DNA of 64,000 bases from an uncultured Chitinophagales bacterium (GCA_964473555.1 CAYYPL010000005.1:43977-107976), one strand, 5' to 3'; numbered from the stretch's first letter, positions 1-59,247 are shown. The notes: generated from the sequence alone by a model not told the origin. Made by a program: numbers and translations.

Positions 1-222
1 ATCCAGTGTAATCAGAGCCAGATGGATGGCTGCGGTTCCCGAACTAAGTACCACAGCACCTTTAGTTCCGCAGTAGTCAGCCAGTTCACGCTCAAAGGCG
101 TCGACGTGCGGACCCAATGGGGCGATCCAGTTCGTGGCGAAGGCATCTGCTACCATTTCCATTTCGCGTCCGCTCATGTGCGGAGACGACATCCAGACGC
201 GTTCTTTTGTTTGGGTTTGCAT
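1..222 (-). CDS. DegT/DnrJ/EryC1/StrS-family PLP-dependent sugar aminotransferase, N-terminal fragment (gene continues past the left edge)
   Basis: Not in the ORF track because it is truncated. The reverse complement of 1..222 starts at ATG 220..222 and reads MQTQTKERVWMSSPHMSGREMEMVADAFATNWIAPLGPHVDAFERELADYCGTKGAVVLSSGTAAIHLALITLD. The pattern SSPxMxGxE...NWIAPxGPxVxxFE...SGTAAIHLAL is the conserved N-terminus of this family. Confidence 0.75.
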   Translation of the reverse strand, partial: MQTQTKERVWMSSPHMSGREMEMVADAFATNWIAPLGPHVDAFERELADYCGTKGAVVLSSGTAAIHLALITLD

Positions 223-240
223 ACGAAGAAAGATATGGTG

Positions 241-521
241 GAGCGGGCAAGCGGGCAAGCGGGTGAGCAGATTTTTGTGTACAAGGGTCAGATAGATCAC
301 AGAACAGAGTACAGAGTGCACAGTGCACAGAATACAGTACACAGAACACAGTGCACAGAACACCGAACAGAGTACACACAAAGAGTTGAACAGTTAGGTC
401 AGAGGGTAGATCAGGGGTCTCGGGTGTGTATAGTGTAATTTGGGTGTGGTAATAGGAAAGCCCTATGCGAGTTCACGGAGATTGATACCGCTAGTTTGCC
501 AGCCCGCTTGCCCGCTTATGG
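241..521. repeat. Modular simple-repeat element: GCGGGCAA arm, CACAG-heptad array, complementary CCCGCTTG arm
   Basis: 241..270 is GAGCGGGCAAGCGGGCAAGCGGGTGAGCAG. 297..380 is an array of about 12 CACAG-type heptads (ACAGAGT, GCACAGT, ACAGAAT and similar). 498..521 is GCCAGCCCGCTTGCCCGCTTATGG, the reverse-complement type of the first arm. The element lies in the divergent region between the aminotransferase start (222) and the capD-like start (849). Track ORFs 22..438(+) and 92..379(-) are read-through artefacts of it. Confidence 0.85.
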
Positions 522-7394: not shown

Positions 7395-7475
7395 TCGCTT
7401 GGGTTTCGGGATGTATTGTGTTCGTTGAGTATTCCTTCGCAAAAACAGACGTCCAGCTTTAAATGCCACCACGTT

Positions 7476-7634
7476 CCCTCATCCCTCATCCCTCATCCCT
7501 CATCCCTCATCGCTCATCCCTCATCGCTCATCGCTCATCGCTCATCCCTCATCGCTCCTCCCTCGTCAAAAATCTTAGCCCTGTGTACTGCAAACTGCAT
7601 CCTGCGAACTTGTGCTCTGCATACTGTGCTCTGT
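7476..7634. repeat. Modular simple-repeat element (C-rich orientation): 13 CCCTCAT/CGCTCAT heptads plus a CTGTG/CTGCG array
   Basis: 7476..7566 is 13 consecutive 7-nt units (CCCTCAT x4, then CGCTCAT/CCCTCAT mixed, ending CGCTCCT CCCTCGT). 7579..7634 is GCCCTGTGTACTGCAAACTGCATCCTGCGAACTTGTGCTCTGCATACTGTGCTCTG. The reverse complement gives the same module order (CACAG array, then GACGAGGGA + GGGATGA heptads) seen in the intragenic blocks at 15-16.7 kb. Track ORF 7416..7661 is an artefact of this element. Confidence 0.85.
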
Positions 7635-7830
7635 AATCATTGTACTGATTACTCCGAATGAAATGAGGATTCGTTGTGAAATCTGAGCACTTTCTGCAAG
7701 GATTATCATTTTCATCACTCATATATATGATCGAGGGTTTGTCGGGTGATGAAGTGTGCCACTGAGCGAACTTGTCCCCCTCCCACCTCCCTTGATCTTC
7801 ACATTCATTTAACGATCAAGAGGTTTAACC

Positions 7831-13494: not shown

Positions 13495-14508
13495 ATGAAA
13501 ATTTTGGTCACTGGAGGCCTTGGATACATCGGATCACACACCGTGGCTGAACTGTATCGAAATGGTCACGAAGCTGTAATCATCGACGATCTGTCCAACT
13601 CGACTCTGGACGTCTTGCCTGCGATCGAGAAATTGACAGGGACAAAAATTCCCTTTTATCAGATCGACATACTCCATGAATCGGGGCTGGAGCGCATCTT
13701 TGAACAGGAATTTCCGATCGATGGAATCATCCATTTTGCCGCGAAGAAATCCGTTTCAGAGTCTCTGGACGAGCCGTTGATCTACTATGAAAACAATATC
13801 AAAGGACTCCTGAATATCATGCGATTAGTAGAGGATTTCAACGTACCCTACCTCGTATTTTCCAGTAGTTGTACAGTCTATGGACAGCCTGAAAGCGTGC
13901 CGGTATCTGAGTCTACGCCAACAACCCGTTCTGTTACACCCTACGGTAACTCCAAGCTCATCGCTGAAATGATGCTGGAAGAGTACACCAGGCTTCGAAA
14001 AAATCTTGGTACCGTAATGCTCAGGTATTTCAATCCGGTAGGCGCCCATGAGTCGGCTTTGATCGGGGAGCTTCCACGCGGAGTCCCGGCCAACCTGATG
14101 CCGTTTATTACCCAAACAGCAGCGGGAGTCAGAGATACCCTGAAAGTTTTCGGATCCGATTACGATACCCGTGACGGTACCGCCATCCGTGACTACATCC
14201 ACGTGGTGGATTTGGCTGATGCCCATGTGAAAGCGATCGAATGGTTGCAAAAGCATCCCGGCGAGGTAGAATTTTTCAATATAGGCACAGGAAACGGACA
14301 GACAGTGCTTGAAGTCATTGATTCCTTTGAGCGCAGTACGGGTCAGAAGTTGAAATATGAACTGGTCGCGCGTCGTCAGGGTGACATTGAGCAGATTTGG
14401 GCCGACACCACCAAAGCTGACCAGGTTTTAGGCTGGAAAGCGAAGCGATCTCTCGACGAAATGACGAAAAGTGCATGGGAGTGGGAGAAAACGCTACGGG
14501 AAAAATAG
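13495..14508 (+). CDS. galE: UDP-glucose 4-epimerase
   Basis: 337 aa with MKILVTGGLGYIGSHT (GxxGxxG) and the YGNSK catalytic YxxxK. Full-length collinearity with GalE (..RYFNPVGAH.., ..DGTAIRDYIHVVDLA..). Confidence 0.95.
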   Translation: MKILVTGGLGYIGSHTVAELYRNGHEAVIIDDLSNSTLDVLPAIEKLTGTKIPFYQIDILHESGLERIFEQEFPIDGIIHFAAKKSVSESLDEPLIYYENNIKGLLNIMRLVEDFNVPYLVFSSSCTVYGQPESVPVSESTPTTRSVTPYGNSKLIAEMMLEEYTRLRKNLGTVMLRYFNPVGAHESALIGELPRGVPANLMPFITQTAAGVRDTLKVFGSDYDTRDGTAIRDYIHVVDLADAHVKAIEWLQKHPGEVEFFNIGTGNGQTVLEVIDSFERSTGQKLKYELVARRQGDIEQIWADTTKADQVLGWKAKRSLDEMTKSAWEWEKTLREK

Positions 14509-14532
14509 TGTCATAACTAGTTATTTTACTTA

Positions 14533-14590
14533 GCGTTTTCCGTTTTCCGTTCTCCGTTTTCCGTTCTCCGTTCTCAGTTCTCTGTTTTCC
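14533..14590. repeat. Heptanucleotide tandem array CCGTTTT/CCGTTCT (8 units)
   Basis: The sequence is GCGTTTT CCGTTTT CCGTTCT CCGTTTT CCGTTCT CCGTTCT CAGTTCT CTGTTTT. It starts 25 nt after the galE stop and ends 7 nt before the start of the GT-C gene. It is related to the CCGTTTTCTGT units at 17233..17289 on the other side of that gene. Confidence 0.85.
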
Positions 14591-14596
14591 ATATAT

Positions 14597-17005
14597 ATGA
14601 ACAAAGCATTTCCATATTTAGTAATCGGTTTTGTATGGTTGTTGATAGTAAATTTAATCGATCACACTGGTGAGTTTCCACTGATTGATGACTGGGCGTA
14701 TGCACATGGAGTGAAGGACTTTTTAGACGATGGGCTGCTGAAGATCTCCGATTGGGTAGCCATGACCCAGGTAGCTCACTTGTTCATGGGTGTAGCATGG
14801 GTGAAGGTGTTTGGATTCTCGCTGGAACATCTACGCGAGATGACCCTGTTGATCAGTTTTTTGGGATCCTTTGTATTCTACTGGCTAACCGGCTATTTCT
14901 CGACGCGTGTCACACACCGGCTTGTCGGGACCCTCATCATCACAGTGAATCCGATCTGGATGTATCTGAGTCATACGTTTATGACGGATGTGCCTTTTAC
15001 AACCTTATTCTTGGCTCTAATACTCATTTTAATCAAAATTGTATACCCTAAAAAAGAGTACTTAGCGCACAAAGCACAGGAAGTTCAGGAAGATCAGAGA
15101 GTACACAGCGCACAGGGCGCAGAACACAGTAAAGAGGTAGACGAGGGAAGAGGGATGAGGGATGAGAAAGAGCAGAGGCCAACGGGCGAGCGGGCAAGCG
15201 GGCAAGCAGAAGGGCTGTTTACTGGTTACCGTTTACCGTTTACAGATAACCGCTCACCGCTACTTCCCACTTCCTACTTCCTTCTACCATTGATTCTGGT
15301 ATTGAGCTCCATACTTGTTCTAATCCGCCAGACCGGACTGGGACTCGGATTTTCCTTCCTGCTGTGGGTCTTGTTGATGGACAGAGATCGGAGAGGCAGG
15401 TTTTGGGGTTTGGCGTTGGCGCTGGTGGGGGTTCAGGTGTCAACTTTGATTGGATACGAGTGGTTTATGGCCTCGATTGACGCCTTGTCGACCCGGTATC
15501 ACGGTGCCTCGAGTCTGAGCTGGATCCTGGGTCGGCCATGGTGGGTGGTCCGGGCTGCATATTACGTGCTGATCCAGTTGCAGTATCTGGGTATGTTCCT
15601 GCTTCCGTTATTACCGTTTGTGTGGATGAAGTGGAGGTCGGTGGGGGCAGGGAACTATTCCCGCTGGGCGTATATGGCGGCAGGTGTGGTGGTGTTGGGT
15701 ATGGGCGTTGCTGTGGGAGGGGATATACTGATGAATCCACGCTACACTCATTTGATGCAATACGATACCGTTGGACATGTCATGACGATCGACTTCACTT
15801 ATGAAAGGCTGGAGTTTAGTCGGAATTTGTATCCACTTTGGGTGGTTTTGCATGGGTTGGGACTGGTGAATGTGTTTATGATAGTGGTAGTGGGGAGTAG
15901 GAAGTGGGGAGTAGTAGCACGCAGTTCACCGTTCACAGTACACAGTGAAGGAATAGACGAGGGACGAGGGATGAGGGATGAGGGAGATAAGAGGCTAGCG
16001 GGCAAGCAGGCTAGTGGGCTAGCAGAAAGACAGAAAACAGTAAACAGTAAACGGATAACAGAAGGCCATTTTAGTGCAGAAGGGTCAGAAAGTACAGATC
16101 GTGCAGGGGGCAGAGATGGGGGATTCATGGGCCGTTTACCCTTTTCTGTTTACCGTTTACTGAAAACACAACGTGCGTTTGATCATCCCGTAACCTGGAT
16201 TATCCTTATTCTGGCTGGTTACACCGTTTTTATTTCCATCGGACAGTTCGTTTTTGACCGATATCTGATACTGCATTTACCTTTGTTCGTTCTACTGGTT
16301 TTGCATCTTGTACAAAGTTCACAAGTTCACTTCACGAAAACAGTAAACAGTAAACGGACAACGGAAGGTGAGCAAGCAGGCAAGCGGGAAAGCGGGATAA
16401 CGATAGTGTACAGTTCACTGGGCACAGATCGCAGTAGGGATGCTGACGAGGGACGAGGGACGAGGGATGAGCGGGTGAGGGGGCAAGCAGAGTTGGCGCA
16501 CAAAGATCAGGAAGATCAGGAAGATCAGGAAGTGCAGGAGACAGAAGAGAGTGCAGGGGCAAGGGATCAGAGTGCAGGGGCAAGGGAGCAGAGGTTAGAG
16601 AATGAAGTAGATGGGCCGTTTACCGTTTACCGTTTGCCGTTTACTCATTCTCTTATCCCTAATCCCTTATCCCTTATCTTTCTAACGCTATCACTCCTAT
16701 TCTCAATCACTGGCGTGCACGACAGCTTCAAATGGAATCGGGTTCGGTTCGGGGCTATCGAACAACTTGAGGCCCAAGGAATCAGTCCGCATCAAATAGA
16801 CGGTGGAGCGGAATACAATTCGTGGCAACGCACCGGTCCGATTCAACCCTTACGCCTGAATGAGAAAAGCTGGTGGTATGTAGATGGGGACGATTATGCT
16901 ATTGCACACGAAGAGATCCCTGGATACAAACGCATCGCAGCGTTTCCGTTTACAAGATATTATGGGCTGGAGAGTGACACACTTTACATCGTTCAAAGAA
17001 AGTAG
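14597..17005 (+). CDS. GT-C-fold polytopic membrane glycosyltransferase (ArnT/PMT_2-like) carrying three in-frame repeat-derived insertions
   Basis: An uninterrupted 802-aa ORF with many hydrophobic helices. An acidic DD motif sits in the first loop (FPLIDDWAYAHG), as in GT-C enzymes, and there is a soluble C-terminal domain (about aa 700-802). Three charged low-complexity loops are encoded by repeat blocks at 15065..15288, 15884..16160 and 16337..16678. The family call is by pattern only. Confidence 0.65.
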   Translation: MNKAFPYLVIGFVWLLIVNLIDHTGEFPLIDDWAYAHGVKDFLDDGLLKISDWVAMTQVAHLFMGVAWVKVFGFSLEHLREMTLLISFLGSFVFYWLTGYFSTRVTHRLVGTLIITVNPIWMYLSHTFMTDVPFTTLFLALILILIKIVYPKKEYLAHKAQEVQEDQRVHSAQGAEHSKEVDEGRGMRDEKEQRPTGERASGQAEGLFTGYRLPFTDNRSPLLPTSYFLLPLILVLSSILVLIRQTGLGLGFSFLLWVLLMDRDRRGRFWGLALALVGVQVSTLIGYEWFMASIDALSTRYHGASSLSWILGRPWWVVRAAYYVLIQLQYLGMFLLPLLPFVWMKWRSVGAGNYSRWAYMAAGVVVLGMGVAVGGDILMNPRYTHLMQYDTVGHVMTIDFTYERLEFSRNLYPLWVVLHGLGLVNVFMIVVVGSRKWGVVARSSPFTVHSEGIDEGRGMRDEGDKRLAGKQASGLAERQKTVNSKRITEGHFSAEGSESTDRAGGRDGGFMGRLPFSVYRLLKTQRAFDHPVTWIILILAGYTVFISIGQFVFDRYLILHLPLFVLLVLHLVQSSQVHFTKTVNSKRTTEGEQAGKRESGITIVYSSLGTDRSRDADEGRGTRDERVRGQAELAHKDQEDQEDQEVQETEESAGARDQSAGAREQRLENEVDGPFTVYRLPFTHSLIPNPLSLIFLTLSLLFSITGVHDSFKWNRVRFGAIEQLEAQGISPHQIDGGAEYNSWQRTGPIQPLRLNEKSWWYVDGDDYAIAHEEIPGYKRIAAFPFTRYYGLESDTLYIVQRK
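15065..15288. repeat. Intragenic repeat block 1 (CACAG / GACGAGGGA-GGGATGA / GCGGGCAA / CCGTTTA / CTACTTCC modules)
   Basis: 15065..15130 holds CACAG-type units. 15137..15166 is GTAGACGAGGGAAGAGGGATGAGGGATGAG. 15185..15209 is GGCGAGCGGGCAAGCGGGCAAGCAG. 15215..15243 is CTGTTTACTGGTTACCGTTTACCGTTTAC. 15260..15288 is CTACTTCCCACTTCCTACTTCCTTCTACC. The block translates in frame as ..AHKAQEVQEDQRVHSAQGAEHSKEVDEGRGMRDEKEQRPTGERASGQAEGLFTGYRLPFTDNRSPLLPTSYFLLP. Confidence 0.85.
15884..16160. repeat. Intragenic repeat block 2 (GGGAGT-GGAAGT / CACAG / GACGAGGGA-GGGATGA / GCGGGCAA / GTAAACA ... CCGTTTA modules)
   Basis: 15884..15917 is GTGGTAGTGGGGAGTAGGAAGTGGGGAGTAGTAG. 15917..15947 holds CACAG-type units. 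15953..15985 is ATAGACGAGGGACGAGGGATGAGGGATGAGGGA. 15992..16024 is GGCTAGCGGGCAAGCAGGCTAGTGGGCTAGCAG. 16034..16054 is AAAACAGTAAACAGTAAACGG. 16132..16160 is CCGTTTACCCTTTTCTGTTTACCGTTTAC. The block translates in frame as ..GSRKWGVVARSSPFTVHSEGIDEGRGMRDEGDKRLAGKQASGLAERQKTVNSKRITEG...GRLPFSVYRLL. Confidence 0.85.
16337..16678. repeat. Intragenic repeat block 3 (GTAAACA / GCAAGCGGG / CACAG / GACGAGGGA / 9-mer x3 / 21-mer x2 / CCGTTTA / CTTATCCC modules)
   Basis: 16337..16357 is AAAACAGTAAACAGTAAACGG. 16367..16396 is the GCAAGC/GCGGG arm. 16442..16490 is GCTGACGAGGGACGAGGGACGAGGGATGAGCGGGTGAGGGGGCAAGCAG. 16505..16533 is GATCAGGAA x3, encoding DQEDQEDQE. 16548..16589 is a 21-nt unit AGAGTGCAGGGGCAAGGGAKC x2. 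16616..16644 is CCGTTTACCGTTTACCGTTTGCCGTTTAC. 16644..16678 is CTCATTCTCTTATCCCTAATCCCTTATCCCTTATC. The frame stays open throughout. Confidence 0.85.
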
Positions 17006-17008
17006 TAA

Positions 17009-17289
17009 GTGCACAGTGCACAGTACGCAGAGCACAGTGCCACAGAACGCAGTGCACAGTGCACAGTACGCAGAACGCAGAGCACAGTGCACAGTACGCA
17101 GAGCACAGTGCACAGTACGCAGAGCACAGTGCCACAGAACGCAGTGCACAGAGCACAGTACGCAGTACGCAGAGCACAGTACGCAGTACGCAGAGCACAG
17201 TACGCAGTACGCAGAGCACAGAGCACAGACCACCGTTTTCTGTATACCGTTTTCTGTATACCGTTTTCCGTTTACCGTTTTCTGTTTAC
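17009..17289. repeat. Long CACAG-type heptad array (about 30 units) followed by CCGTTTTCTGT units
   Basis: 17009..17228 is tandem GCACAGT / ACGCAGA / GCACAGA / ACGCAGT units (consensus RCRCAGW), starting 4 nt after the stop of the GT-C gene. 17233..17289 is CCGTTTTCTGTATA x2, then CCGTTTTCCGTTTACCGTTTTCTGTTTAC. The stop codon of the convergent GT2 gene (17286..17288) lies in the last unit. Six track ORFs, one per frame, run through it. Confidence 0.9.
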
Positions 17290-18023
17290 TTCAGTATGAA
17301 ATACTTCAGAATCCCCCATTTGTGGAGACGGAAGCGAAGGGAAGTATGGAGCACTCCGAATCCGTAGGTGACCGACCGACGAAAACTGATGGAGGAGGCT
17401 TCTTCAAAGTAGCGCGTCGGACAACTGATCTCCCCAAATCGTGCTCCTTTATGGTGCAACTGGATCAATATCTGATTATCAAATACAAAATCATCGCTGT
17501 TTACCATCCATTTCCTGTCTTCCAGGATCTCGCGGCTGAACGCACGGTAACCCGTATGATACTCACTGAGTTTTTGTCCAATAAGGATGTTCTGCAGTAA
17601 AGTGAGTATCCGATTCGCCACATACTTGTATCTTGGCATGCCCCCTTTCAGGGCGCCCATCCCCAGAATTCGGGATCCCAATACCACATCATATACGCCG
17701 GATGTGATCATCGCAGCCATCGCTGTGGTGAGTTTCGGATCATACTGGTAGTCGGGATGTAACATGATGATGACATCGGCACCCGTGTCAAGCGCTACCT
17801 GGTAACAGGTTTTCTGATTGCCTCCATAACCCTGATTGGACTCGTGACGGACACAAATGAGTCCGAGTTTATTGGCCAATTCAAAGGTGTTGTCTTTGCT
17901 GAAATCATCAACCAGGATAATCTCATCTACGAAGCCGGAAGGAATGTCGGCTATGGTGCGTTCCAGAGTTTTTCCTGCATTATAGGCCGGAAGTACAATT
18001 GCGATTTTTTTGTTGTTTAACAT
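17286..18023 (-). CDS. Family 2 glycosyltransferase (polyprenyl-phosphate sugar synthase type, DPM1/ArnC-like)
   Basis: 245 aa. The N-terminus is KIAIVLPAYNAGKTLERTI...VDDFSKDNT (GT-A fold with DxD-type acidic motif). It also has ..DVIIMLHPDYQYDP.. and a size typical of the DPM1/ArnC subgroup. Confidence 0.85.
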   Translation of the reverse strand: MLNNKKIAIVLPAYNAGKTLERTIADIPSGFVDEIILVDDFSKDNTFELANKLGLICVRHESNQGYGGNQKTCYQVALDTGADVIIMLHPDYQYDPKLTTAMAAMITSGVYDVVLGSRILGMGALKGGMPRYKYVANRILTLLQNILIGQKLSEYHTGYRAFSREILEDRKWMVNSDDFVFDNQILIQLHHKGARFGEISCPTRYFEEASSISFRRSVTYGFGVLHTSLRFRLHKWGILKYFILK

Positions 18024-49182: not shown

Positions 49183-49224
49183 CCGACGCGACGCTTGCGT
49201 CTCGCATCAGTTGCGTTCAAGAAA
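49165..49224. other. Long perfect hairpin (18-bp stem plus inner stem) spanning the polymerase stop codon
   Basis: TTTCTTGAACGCAACTGA (49165..49182, including the TGA stop at 49180..49182) is the exact reverse complement of TCAGTTGCGTTCAAGAAA (49207..49224). The 24-nt loop CCGACGCGACGCTTGCGTCTCGCA can itself pair (GCGACGC / GCGTCTCGC). No T-run follows. Confidence 0.8.
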
Positions 49225-49345
49225 AGTAAACAGAAACCGGTAAACAGTAAACAGCCCATCGGGGTGGTGAGTGAATGTACCGCTCGCTGCTTGCCGCTCA
49301 CAGCTTACTGCATGGTCGTTTACTGTTTACTGTTTACTGTTTACG
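49225..49345. repeat. Modular element: GTAAACA arm / core with CTTGCCGC fragment / CTGTTTA arm
   Basis: 49225..49255 is AAGTAAACAGAAACCGGTAAACAGTAAACAG. 49280..49300 is CCGCTCGCTGCTTGCCGCTCAC. 49316..49345 is GTCGTTTACTGTTTACTGTTTACTGTTTACG. The two outer arms are complementary heptad arrays about 60 nt apart. Confidence 0.85.
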
Positions 49346-49363
49346 CTCGCGGAGCGAGCTCAT

Positions 49364-49627: not shown

Positions 49628-49758
49628 GTGAGCGGCGAGCAGGTAGCAAACAAGCGGGCTAGCAGGTGAGCCGTAAATACTTGTGCACGGAGGTCAGAAA
49701 GAACAGAAAGTGCAGATGTGTAGGGGGCAGGGTACCGCTTGCCTGCTTGCCCGCTTGC
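49628..49758. repeat. Modular element: GCGRGCAAG-type arm / CACAG-like core / CTTGCCCGC arm
   Basis: 49628..49671 is GTGAGCGGCGAGCAGGTAGCAAACAAGCGGGCTAGCAGGTGAGC. The core is GTGCACGGAGGTCAGAAAGAACAGAAAGTGCAGATGTG. 49735..49758 is CCGCTTGCCTGCTTGCCCGCTTGC, the complementary type. The element starts 4 nt after the small-ORF stop and lies upstream of tRNA-Leu. Confidence 0.85.
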
Positions 49759-49832
49759 AAAGACATAGATAGGTATTAACGCAGATCAGATATTGCGAGC
49801 GTTGAGTATTTATCCGTATATTTTAGCTCTAC

Positions 49833-59013: not shown

Positions 59014-59034
59014 GAAGCGGGGAGCAGTATTTTA

Positions 59035-59206
59035 GGGAGTGGGAAGTAGGGAGTGGGAAGTAGGAAGTAGGGAGTGGGGAGTGGGGAGTCGGAATGATTT
59101 TCTACTTCACTGAATTTTACAGATATTAAGACAATGTGGTTGGTTATTTCTATCGTATGGGATTATTGTCATAAATCTACTACCCATTTCCTACTTCCAA
59201 CTACCC
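59035..59206. repeat. Modular element: GGGAGTG/GGAAGTA heptad arm (8 units) / AT-rich core / complementary CTACTTCC arm
   Basis: 59035..59093 is GGGAGTG GGAAGTA GGGAGTG GGAAGTA GGAAGTA GGGAGTG GGGAGTG GGGAGTC GG. 59177..59206 is CTACTACCCATTTCCTACTTCCAACTACCC. It contains TTCCTACTTCC, the exact complement of GGAAGTAGGAA in the left arm. The element starts 22 nt after the FolB-cupin stop and ends 42 nt before the peptidase ATG. Confidence 0.88.
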
Positions 59207-59247
59207 AAAGTTTAATTGACTTAACCCAAAATCTAAACGTATCTACT

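What the first reader, a model, noticed from the sequence alone, without database searches (positions are those of the whole stretch)
17009..17228. A 210-nt heptad array with all six reading frames open
Six ORFs from the supplied track run through the CACAG-type array, one per frame. On the plus strand they are 16884..17600, 17009..17299 and 17059..17367. On the minus strand they are 16850..17233, 16950..17219 and 16993..17226. All six frames are therefore stop-free over at least 17059..17219. The units (GCACAGT, ACGCAGA and similar) contain none of TAA, TAG, TGA or their complements TTA, CTA, TCA. A smaller version occurs at 297..380, where ORFs 22..438(+) and 92..379(-) overlap. A sequence with no stop codon in any frame or orientation can land in a coding region without truncating it. 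That property fits the intragenic copies in the neighbouring gene. It may be selected, or it may be a by-product of the unit composition.
Basis: seen in the sequence. Interest (0 to 1): 0.6.

Follow-up and report, generated by a model that had tools for sequence, protein, structure and literature searches.

The report
Stop-free heptanucleotide repeat between two genes
The 220-base stretch is a simple tandem repeat of 7-base units filling the gap between two convergent genes, and its lack of stop codons in all six frames is an ordinary side effect of repeating a few T-poor units, not a designed property.

Summary
None of TAA/TAG/TGA/TTA/CTA/TCA occurs from 17009 to 17271. That is the longest such gap in the window (266 nt; the next is 95), and all six listed ORFs exist.

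The array is about 31 CACAG-type heptads (GCACAGT, ACGCAGA, ACGCAGT, GCACAGA). With a (CCGTTTTCTGTAT)x4 array it fills the whole spacer between a GT39-like gene and a convergent GT2 gene.

Composition shuffles are never open (0/200,000). That is the wrong null, because the array uses only 18 trinucleotides. Nulls that keep the repeat structure are open in 17-35% of cases, and random heptads in 46-52%. Among real non-CACAG heptad arrays, 27-32% are open.

The three intragenic repeat inserts next door are open only in the frame in use. Arrays are 12-fold denser in non-coding DNA. CACAG-type arrays sit inside long ORFs no more often than other arrays, and many carry stops.

Five syntenic loci from relatives hold a different repeat or none in this spacer.

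Verdict: a heptanucleotide simple-sequence repeat of the known LSSR/STRR kind, most likely made by slippage, in an uncultured Bacteroidota/Balneolia-like bacterium. Six-frame openness is a by-product. Interest is low.

The parts
17009..17228 (.). CACAG-type heptanucleotide tandem array of about 31 units: GCACAGT x12-13, ACGCAGA x8, ACGCAGT x5, GCACAGA x2 and the 8-mer GCCACAGA x2. It has a 92-nt segmental duplication and a terminal (GCACAGT ACGCAGT ACGCAGA)x3 block. T content is 19/220.
   Evidence: unit parse, 18 trinucleotides; 22 pattern matches here vs 0 expected
17232..17289 (.). Second array, (ACCGTTTTCTGTAT)x4.1, which is two alternating heptads. Its last unit contains the stop codon of the minus-strand GT2 gene (TTA at 17286-17288).
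17003..17008 (+). Tandem in-frame stop codons TAG TAA of the GT39-like gene. The array starts at the next base.
   Evidence: the C-terminus aligns with orthologues
14597..17005 (+). Upstream gene: an 802-aa multi-pass membrane protein. Its distant homologues carry PF13231 (GT39/ArnT/PMT-like). It holds three in-frame composite repeat inserts (about 15044-15285, 15905-16165, 16316-16680) that are absent from 537-575-aa orthologues.
17286..18023 (-). Convergent downstream gene: a family 2 glycosyltransferase (PF00535, E 1.2e-21).
298..378 (.). Smaller CACAG-type array (11.6 units, also free of stop-type trinucleotides). It lies in a divergent intergenic region, in the loop between (AGCGGGCA)x3 at 242-263 and the complementary (GCCCGCTT)x2 at 502-517.

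Best explanation
The feature is a heptanucleotide simple-sequence repeat. It belongs to the known class of prokaryotic long SSRs with 5-11-nt units, of which cyanobacterial STRR heptamers are the classic example. It has expanded to fill the entire 3' spacer between two convergent glycosyltransferase genes. The host is an uncultured member of the Bacteroidota/Balneolia-like (FCB) group whose genome carries many heptad and octad arrays. Shown: it is a tandem array with nested higher-order duplications; it runs from stop codon to stop codon; and the same spacer in relatives holds different repeats or none. Inferred: it grew by slipped-strand mispairing or unequal recombination of single units and multi-unit blocks, and it needs no sequence-specific function. 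Six-frame openness follows arithmetically. Because 7 is not a multiple of 3, each unit is read in all three frames within 21 nt. An array is therefore open in a strand if and only if its few units and junctions lack the three stop words for that strand. These T-poor units place T only in AGT-G and AGT-A contexts (GTG, TGC, GTA, TAC), so none of the six stop words can arise.
For: Anatomy: period 7/21/92 with 93% matches at period 92, and a shared 8-mer variant (GCCACAGA) 13 units apart that marks a block duplication. The two arrays span the spacer from the TAA at 17006-17008 to the stop at 17286-17288. Nulls that keep repeat structure are open in 17-35% of cases, and random heptads in 46-52%. 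Base rate in real data: 28-32% of 276 non-CACAG period-7 arrays, and 18 of 66 in the same lineage. Turnover: the orthologous GT39/GT2 spacer is 252 nt of an unrelated 84-nt composite repeat in L121, 48 nt without repeats in L122, (GGTGAGCA)x13 plus an inserted gene in L123, 37 nt in L125, and (AAGGGGCAG)x4 in L126. Arrays are 12-fold denser in non-coding DNA. There is no Rfam family, promoter-like site or terminator-like site. CAG-type heptad arrays of 100-400 nt occur intergenically in many phyla. Literature: heptanucleotides are the most abundant long-SSR class in most genomes, and polymerase slippage has been proposed (Mrazek et al. 2007, as summarised in PMC4679880). Stop content of a heptamer has already been described as a major factor controlling where such repeats can sit relative to ORFs (PMC4679880).
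Against: Length polymorphism between strains, the direct signature of slippage, could not be shown. Short-read contigs break inside the array, and two metagenome scans found no further copies. As minus-strand RNA the spacer folds better than shuffles (z -4.0 to -4.9, against -0.6 to -1.3 for the plus strand), so some RNA-level role is not excluded. Among CACAG-type arrays, stop-creating single-base unit variants are fewer than expected (22 observed vs 34-38). That sample was selected with a stop-free search pattern, so it is biased. In the unbiased non-CACAG set the deficit is not significant (15 vs 18.5-20.4).
Confidence: 0.8

Rival explanations
1. One reading: the CACAG module is selected to lack stops in every frame and orientation, so copies can insert into coding regions without truncating them, as in the neighbouring gene.
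For: The array and its smaller copy are completely stop-free. The neighbouring gene does carry in-frame repeat inserts that include short CACAG-like runs. Stop-creating variants are apparently depleted in CACAG-type arrays, 22 observed vs 34-38 expected, though the sample is biased.
Against: The intragenic inserts are open in one frame only. Long CACAG arrays in the window are all intergenic. CACAG-type arrays are embedded in long ORFs no more often than other arrays (25% vs 22%) and less often than random positions (50%). Relatives have CACAG-family arrays with stops. Openness is expected in 17-52% of heptad arrays anyway. 220 nt is not a multiple of 3. The array has no terminal inverted repeats or other mobile-element boundaries. 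The insert peptide matches no other protein cluster among 1.84 billion representatives.
Confidence: 0.04
2. The spacer acts at the RNA level as a structured 3' UTR for the minus-strand GT2 operon, serving as a stabiliser, a terminator substitute or an insulator between convergent transcripts. The (ACAGAAAACGG)n array would pair with the (CUGUGC/CUGCGU)n array through G-U wobble pairs.
For: Minus-strand RNA of 16995-17300 has MFE -116.6 kcal/mol, z -4.0, and 0 of 100 shuffles fold as well. The plus strand gives z -0.6. This was reproduced at z -4.4 to -4.9 vs -1.2 to -1.3. STRR heptamer hairpins in cyanobacteria have been proposed to stabilise transcripts (PMC2670836).
Against: The orthologous spacers show no consistent strand-specific structure: z about 0 in L122, L123 and L125, and a modest value equal on both strands in L121 and L126. 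There is no terminator-like hairpin with a U tract and no Rfam match. GU-rich tandem arrays containing GTGCAC and GTAC palindromes fold well for trivial reasons. Covariation cannot be tested because the sequence is not conserved.
Confidence: 0.1
3. One of the six overlapping ORFs is a real gene encoding a 7-residue-periodic (coiled-coil-like) peptide.
For: ORF 17009..17299 gives a borderline Pfam Alanine_zipper hit (E 7.9e-5, 23.3 bits against a cut-off of 23.1).
Against: Three heptads of DNA necessarily encode a 7-residue period, so a match to a heptad-repeat profile is expected from periodicity alone. The other five ORFs have no hits. The ORFs overlap each other and the ends of two well-supported genes. 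The sequence is absent from orthologous loci. The same pseudo-zipper effect was noted for TAACTGA repeats (PMC4679880).
Confidence: 0.02
4. The length or internal order of the array is an assembly artefact (a collapsed or expanded repeat).
For: Independent short-read contigs L001 and L002 end about 40 nt into the array. A relative's assembly has an N gap inside an in-gene array.
Against: The array start and both flanks are reproduced exactly in two other samples. The internal structure, with its marked 92-nt duplication and variant units, is not what a collapsed assembly typically gives. Either way this affects only copy number, not the nature of the feature or its stop-free property.
Confidence: 0.04

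Closest known systems
Prokaryotic long simple sequence repeats with 5-11-nt units (LSSR; Mrazek, Guo & Shah 2007, as summarised in PMC4679880)
   Same: Head-to-tail copies of a short unit far longer than chance allows. The heptanucleotide unit is the commonest class. Location is mostly non-coding, distribution among lineages is sporadic, and slippage is the proposed origin.
   Different: This unit family (GCACAGT/ACGCAGA) and this host lineage are not among those described in the papers read. Here several related units alternate in higher-order 21-nt and 92-nt blocks.
Cyanobacterial STRR (short tandemly repeated repetitive) heptamers (Mazel et al. 1990, from my own knowledge; PMC2670836; Vioque 1997, cited in PMC2858038)
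   Same: 7-bp tandem units occur in many arrays per genome and often form hairpins with a complementary array. They are found between genes and even inside functional genes (the RNase P RNA gene). Their function is unknown.
   Different: The host is not a cyanobacterium. The units differ from CCCCAGT/TTGGTCA/CAACAGT. The CACAG array has no complementary partner array nearby.
TAACTGA heptamer direct repeats of Beggiatoaceae, cyanobacteria and some Bacteroidetes (MacGregor 2015, PMC4679880)
   Same: Intergenic heptamer arrays, some immediately next to stop or start codons, with long arrays in some Bacteroidetes. That paper already analyses how the stop content of a heptamer, per orientation, limits overlap with ORFs, and notes the pseudo-zipper 7-residue translation.
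   Different: TAACTGA has stops in all three forward frames, the opposite extreme. Those sets are mostly 2-6 copies just upstream of start codons. Here there are 31 copies in a 3' spacer between convergent genes.
GGGNATC G-quadruplex-forming heptamer repeats of Xanthomonas and Nostoc (Rehm et al. 2015, PMC4692102)
   Same: Genome-wide heptameric SSRs over-represented in non-coding DNA, often within 50 bp of a stop codon, with variable unit number.
   Different: The CACAG units have no G tracts, so G4 formation is not expected. That family prefers four units. The window's (TGAGGGA)n array at 7475-7564 resembles that family more closely than the array under study does.
Rickettsia palindromic elements (RPE): repeats inserted in frame in protein genes (Ogata et al. 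2000; from my own knowledge, not checked here)
   Same: This is a precedent for repeat DNA tolerated and translated inside genes at permissive surface sites, as with the three inserts in the neighbouring gene.
   Different: RPEs are discrete palindromic elements of fixed length dispersed through many genes. Here the inserts are variable tandem arrays confined to one gene family, and the array under study is intergenic.

Membership tests
Long simple sequence repeat (LSSR) / heptanucleotide SSR | Uninterrupted head-to-tail copies of a 5-11-nt unit | tested here: met
   TRF: period 7, 31.3 copies over 17008-17228. Unit parse.
Long simple sequence repeat (LSSR) / heptanucleotide SSR | Length well beyond chance for the genome | tested here: met
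   23 matches to a 24-nt degenerate 3.4-unit pattern in the window (22 of them in this array), against 0.00 expected in 100 shuffles.
Long simple sequence repeat (LSSR) / heptanucleotide SSR | Units not a multiple of 3 lie mostly outside coding regions | tested here: met
   Array density is 9.2% of non-coding bases against 0.77% of coding bases, and 90% of the coding share lies in one gene.
Long simple sequence repeat (LSSR) / heptanucleotide SSR | Rapid gain, loss and copy-number change between strains (slippage) | tested here: inconclusive
   Orthologous spacers in five relatives hold different repeats or none. Within-species copy-number variation could not be measured.
Cyanobacterial STRR | Host is a filamentous (heterocystous) cyanobacterium | tested here: not met
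   The nearest named IDH homologues (74-75% identity) are Balneolaceae, Balneolia, Cyclonatronaceae and a Bacteroidetes MAG. A syntenic relative has a T9SS Por_Secre_tail protein.
Cyanobacterial STRR | Unit is one of the STRR consensus heptamers (CCCCAGT, TTGGTCA, CAACAGT; recalled, not checked) | tested here: not met
   The units are GCACAGT, ACGCAGA, ACGCAGT and GCACAGA.
MITE / RPE-like insertion element | Defined ends (terminal inverted repeats, target-site duplication) | tested here: not met
   The inverted-repeat search over 14400-17400 finds no arms flanking the array. The array abuts stop codons on both sides.
MITE / RPE-like insertion element | Dispersed, near-identical copies in many unrelated genes | tested here: not met
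   phmmer of an insert peptide against 1.84 billion representatives hits only the gene's own cluster. No exact 28-mer of the array was found in JGI metagenomes.
Phase-variable contingency SSR | The repeat lies in a promoter, 5' region or reading frame, so a unit change switches expression | tested here: not met
   The array lies downstream of both stop codons (17003-17008 and 17286-17288) of convergent genes. This was not assessed for the in-gene arrays.
Intrinsic terminator | GC-rich hairpin followed by a T/U run | tested here: not met
   0 terminator-like sites in 16800-17500 on either strand.
Known structured RNA (Rfam 15) | Match at the gathering score to a curated covariance model | tested here: not met
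   Only two tRNAs match in the whole window.
G4-forming GGGNATC heptamer repeats | G3 tract in every unit | tested here: not met
   No GGG occurs among the 18 trinucleotides of the array.

The most novel reading that the evidence does not exclude
The array may be one visible piece of a lineage-specific, modular system of roughly eight heptad and octad module types (CACAG, GACGAGG, GCGGGCAA, GTAAACA/CCGTTTA, GGGAGTA and others). These modules recur in preferred orders, pair with complementary arrays to form slippage-tolerant hairpins, and are copied as composite blocks. One example is the 92-nt CACAG-GACGAGG-GCGGGCAA block shared by two insertion sites. The modules remodel both intergenic spacers and permissive loops of membrane proteins. 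On this reading the arrays are spread or maintained by a dedicated mechanism or have an RNA-level role, rather than arising by independent neutral slippage. Six-frame openness would still be incidental.
Probability: 0.1. Interest if true: 0.5.

Novelty: new member of a known kind. Interest (0 to 1): 0.15.

Why it matters
The value is mainly as a caution. A tandem array whose unit length is not a multiple of three is either closed or open in all three frames of a strand at once. Long all-frames-open stretches are therefore common in repeat-rich genomes: about three in ten real heptad arrays here. Such stretches produce stacks of spurious overlapping ORFs. One even gave a borderline Pfam coiled-coil-type hit, because 3 x 7 nt equals a 7-residue period. 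The arrays also break short-read assemblies exactly there. Composition-matched shuffling is the wrong null for low-complexity DNA and would have wrongly labelled this feature as highly significant. Biologically, the result adds an uncultured Bacteroidota/Balneolia-like lineage to the taxa with abundant heptanucleotide repeats. It also shows that CAG-type heptad arrays occur in many phyla. The more interesting lead is the neighbouring gene, where such arrays are translated in three loops and turn over quickly between relatives.

Tried and rejected
(1) Mono- and dinucleotide shuffles as a significance test were run. I rejected them as the relevant null because the array has only 18 trinucleotides, and replaced them with relabelling, column-permutation and empirical base-rate nulls.
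(2) An exact look-up of the 802-aa protein found nothing on record. The GT2 look-up gave only contigs that break in the array.
(4) Two metagenome scans, one for the left junction and one for a 28-mer of the array, gave 0 hits.
(5) The cluster look-up gave no organism names. Taxonomy rests on IDH neighbours only.
(6) The word-index protein search with the insert peptide returned nothing, not even the source protein, so it is uninformative. The exhaustive phmmer search hit only the gene's own cluster.
(7) Rfam and promoter/terminator scans found nothing in the spacer.
(8) The Pfam Alanine_zipper hit of the translated array was judged a periodicity artefact.
(9) A conserved 3'-UTR structure was considered because of the minus-strand z of -4 to -5, but orthologous spacers do not support it.
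(10) The test for depletion of stop-creating unit variants was not significant in the unbiased set and is confounded by ascertainment in the CACAG set.
(11) The apparent gene break in L125 is an N gap in an array, not a frameshift.
(12) The resemblance of CACAGTG to the V(D)J/Transib heptamer was considered coincidental: the units are tandem, with no nonamer and no element ends. It was not pursued.

Full report
**1. Observation**

The sequence at 17009-17228 is a tandem array of about 31 seven-base units. TRF gives period 7 with 31.3 copies. It also gives higher-order periods of 21 nt and 92 nt, the latter at 93% matches with no indels. Parsed on the CAG anchor, the units are GCACAGT (12-13 copies), ACGCAGA (8), ACGCAGT (5), GCACAGA (2) and an 8-mer GCCACAGA (2). 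The two 8-mers lie 13 units apart, which marks a 92-nt block duplication.

None of TAA, TAG, TGA, TTA, CTA or TCA occurs between the TAA at 17006 and the TTA at 17272. This 266-nt gap is by far the longest in the window; the next are 95 and 90 nt. The smaller array at 298-378 is also confirmed as stop-free (gap 297-387).

**2. Is it more than chance?**

Against composition-matched shuffles the answer looks like yes. None of 200,000 mononucleotide shuffles and none of 20,000 dinucleotide shuffles is free of stop words. That null is inappropriate, because the array contains only 18 distinct trinucleotides.

Seven is not a multiple of three, so every unit is read in all three frames within 21 nt. 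An array is therefore open in a strand exactly when its few units and their junctions lack the three stop words for that strand. Nulls that keep the repeat structure are often six-frame open:
- 4 of 24 relabelings of the alphabet;
- 18.8% of 120,960 column-permuted and relabelled arrays;
- 35% of column permutations that keep the real composition;
- 46-52% of random pure heptads.

Real arrays behave the same way. Of 276 period-7 arrays that are not of the CACAG type, 28-32% are six-frame open whatever the copy-number cut-off. These came from 118 loci of diverse bacteria, the window and syntenic relatives. Within this lineage the figure is 18 of 66. The property is common and follows from low complexity.

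**3. Context**

The array begins one base after the tandem stops TAG TAA (17003-17008) of an 802-aa membrane protein gene (14597-17005). The distant homologues of that protein carry PF13231, the GT39/ArnT/PMT-like family. The array is followed by (ACCGTTTTCTGTAT)x4 at 17232-17289. The last unit of that second array contains the stop codon of a convergent family-2 glycosyltransferase gene (17286-18023, minus strand; PF00535). The whole spacer, from stop codon to stop codon, is therefore made of heptads.

The region is a polysaccharide-synthesis cluster containing GalE-like, Bac_transf and GT2 genes. There is no Rfam match, promoter-like site or terminator-like site in the spacer.

The closest named relatives of the window's isocitrate dehydrogenase (74-75% identity) are Balneolaceae, Balneolia and Cyclonatronaceae, plus a Bacteroidetes MAG. 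Closer relatives are all unnamed metagenomic sequences. A syntenic relative encodes a T9SS-tail protein.

**4. The intragenic copies do not share the property**

An alignment of 18 orthologues shows that the neighbouring gene carries three inserts in loops, at about 15044-15285, 15905-16165 and 16316-16680. Orthologues of 537-575 aa lack these inserts.

Each insert has 7-15 stop trinucleotides in the two unused sense frames and 11-17 on the antisense strand. These densities are similar to those of the non-repeat parts of the gene. The GACGAGG/GATGAGG module is read as DEGRGMRDE at all three sites, because the other two frames run into TGA (translations).

In the relative L121, an in-gene (GCAGGGA)x19 array has 0 sense and 6 antisense stop words. 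In-gene arrays are thus simply those that happen to be open in the frame in use. Six-frame openness plays no part. In any case a 220-nt insert would shift the downstream frame.

**5. Other copies and ORF association**

In the window, tandem arrays cover 9.2% of non-coding bases but only 0.77% of coding bases. Ninety percent of the coding share lies in the single GT39-like gene. All CACAG arrays of at least 3.5 units are intergenic.

Examples are about 400 nt of AGAGCGC/AGAGCAC units in an acidobacterial MAG and (ACGCAGT)x31 in a Chloroflexia MAG.

The search pattern was itself stop-free, yet 18-42% of these arrays contain stop words, and the share rises with array length. A Bacteroidetes MAG has CATAG variants. 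The relative L121 has (AACTGTG)x17 with 12 stop words.

Arrays lie inside a frame that stays open at least 300 nt on both sides in 25% (CACAG type) and 22% (other types) of cases. Random 50-nt intervals do so in 50% of cases. CACAG arrays are therefore not favoured inside ORFs.

A test for depletion of stop-creating single-base unit variants was not significant in the unbiased set (15 observed, 18.5-20.4 expected). It showed a deficit only in the pattern-ascertained CACAG set (22 observed, 34-38 expected), where the ascertainment confounds it.

**6. Evolution at this locus**

Five syntenic loci from relatives (IDH 89-92% identical in L121, L123, L125 and L126; GT39-like protein 52-67% identical in L122 and L121) were compared at the same convergent spacer:

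| Locus | Spacer content |
|---|---|
| L121 | 252 nt of an unrelated 84-nt composite repeat |
| L122 | 48 nt with no repeat |
| L123 | (GGTGAGCA)x13, an inserted 23S-rRNA-IVP-family gene and inverted octads |
| L125 | 37 nt |
| L126 | (AAGGGGCAG)x4 |

The spacer is a site of rapid repeat turnover. Neither the CACAG sequence nor the spacer length is conserved.

Two short-read metagenome contigs reproduce the flank and the first 40 nt or so of the array exactly and then end. The array is therefore real, but its copy number is unverified. Metagenome scans for the junction and for a 28-mer of the array found nothing.

**7. Possible RNA role**

As minus-strand RNA, the sense of the GT2 transcript, the spacer folds better than shuffles (z -4.0 to -4.9). 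The plus strand gives z -0.6 to -1.3. The orthologous spacers show no consistent or strand-specific excess of structure.

GU-rich arrays containing GTGCAC and GTAC palindromes fold well for trivial reasons. I keep this as a minor rival.

Other elements in the window are true paired-array hairpins: 242-517, 49220-49350, 49635-49765 and 59028-59210. They give z -2.6 to -6.3 on both strands. The CACAG array has no complementary partner array.

**8. Comparison with what is known**

The feature fits the known class of prokaryotic long simple-sequence repeats with 5-11-nt units. In that class heptanucleotides are the most abundant, and polymerase slippage has been proposed as the origin (Mrazek et al. 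2007, as summarised in PMC4679880).

It works like cyanobacterial STRR heptamers (PMC2670836; Vioque 1997, cited in PMC2858038). It is not a member of that family, because both the host and the units differ.

MacGregor (2015) already analysed how the stop content of a heptamer, per orientation, governs where arrays can overlap ORFs. That paper also noted the zipper-like 7-residue translation. The same effect explains the borderline Pfam Alanine_zipper hit of the translated array here. Rehm et al. (2015) describe G-rich heptamer repeats enriched near stop codons.

**9. Verdict**

The feature is a new member of a known kind. Six-frame openness is a by-product of repeating a few T-poor units and not an adaptation for insertion into genes. 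The interest of this finding is low. The translated, fast-evolving repeat inserts in the neighbouring gene and the modular paired-array hairpins are the more promising leads.

Noticed in passing
window 14597-17005 (inserts at about 15044-15285, 15905-16165, 16316-16680): The GT39/PMT_2-like membrane protein gene carries three in-frame composite inserts built from heptad and octad arrays, at loops where 537-575-aa orthologues have nothing. Other orthologues have different repeat-derived inserts at the same three sites, so these loops are permissive hot spots with fast turnover.
   Followed up: partly
window 15120-15211 and 15936-16027: Two of the inserts share a collinear 92-nt composite (CACAG module, linker, GACGAGG module, linker, GCGGGCAA module) at 81.5% identity and in the same reading frame. 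This suggests copying of multi-module blocks within the gene rather than independent slippage. The insert peptide matches no other protein cluster.
   Followed up: partly
window 242-517, 49220-49350, 49635-49765, 59028-59210: Intergenic hairpins whose two arms are complementary tandem arrays, for example (AGCGGGCA)n with (GCCCGCTT)n, (GTAAACA)n with (TGTTTAC)n, and (TAGGGAG)n with its complement. Folding z-scores are -2.6 to -6.3 on both strands. They resemble STRR hairpins of cyanobacteria.
   Followed up: partly
window 7475-7564: (TCCCTCA/TCGCTCA)x13, which is (TGAGGGA)n on the minus strand, with a G3 tract every 7 nt. It recalls the G-quadruplex-forming GGGNATC heptamer repeats of Xanthomonas and Nostoc (PMC4692102). 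It is followed at about 7580-7640 by a degenerate complement of the CACAG module.
   Followed up: no
L123 19041-19640: In one relative, the orthologous convergent spacer contains a small 23S_rRNA_IVP-family (PF05635) gene lying between (GGTGAGCA)x13 and inverted copies of the same octad, as if it were a cassette flanked by array arms.
   Followed up: no
L003-L120 (e.g. L082 2200-2590, L037 3512-3731, L045 1620-1695): CAG-type heptad arrays of up to about 400 nt occur in intergenic DNA of many phyla (Nitrospirota, Acidobacteriota, Chloroflexota, Gemmatimonadota, Actinomycetota, Bacteroidota). Those 8-kb blocks are rich in other period-7 arrays too: 445 TRF rows in total.
   Followed up: partly
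L001 10739-10832, L002 8153-8246, L125 about 15290-15390: Short-read contigs end about 40 nt into the CACAG array, and a MAG has an N gap inside an in-gene heptad array that splits the gene call. These arrays systematically break assemblies and gene predictions.
   Followed up: yes
window 17009-17299 (+): The translated array gives a Pfam Alanine_zipper hit just above the gathering score (23.3 vs 23.1 bits). Three DNA heptads encode a 7-residue period, which mimics coiled-coil heptads. This is a likely source of false annotations.
   Followed up: yes
window 17006-17289, minus strand: The spacer folds far better than shuffles only as minus-strand RNA (z about -4.4 to -4.9, against -1.2 to -1.3 for the plus strand). 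Orthologous spacers do not show this asymmetry.
   Followed up: partly
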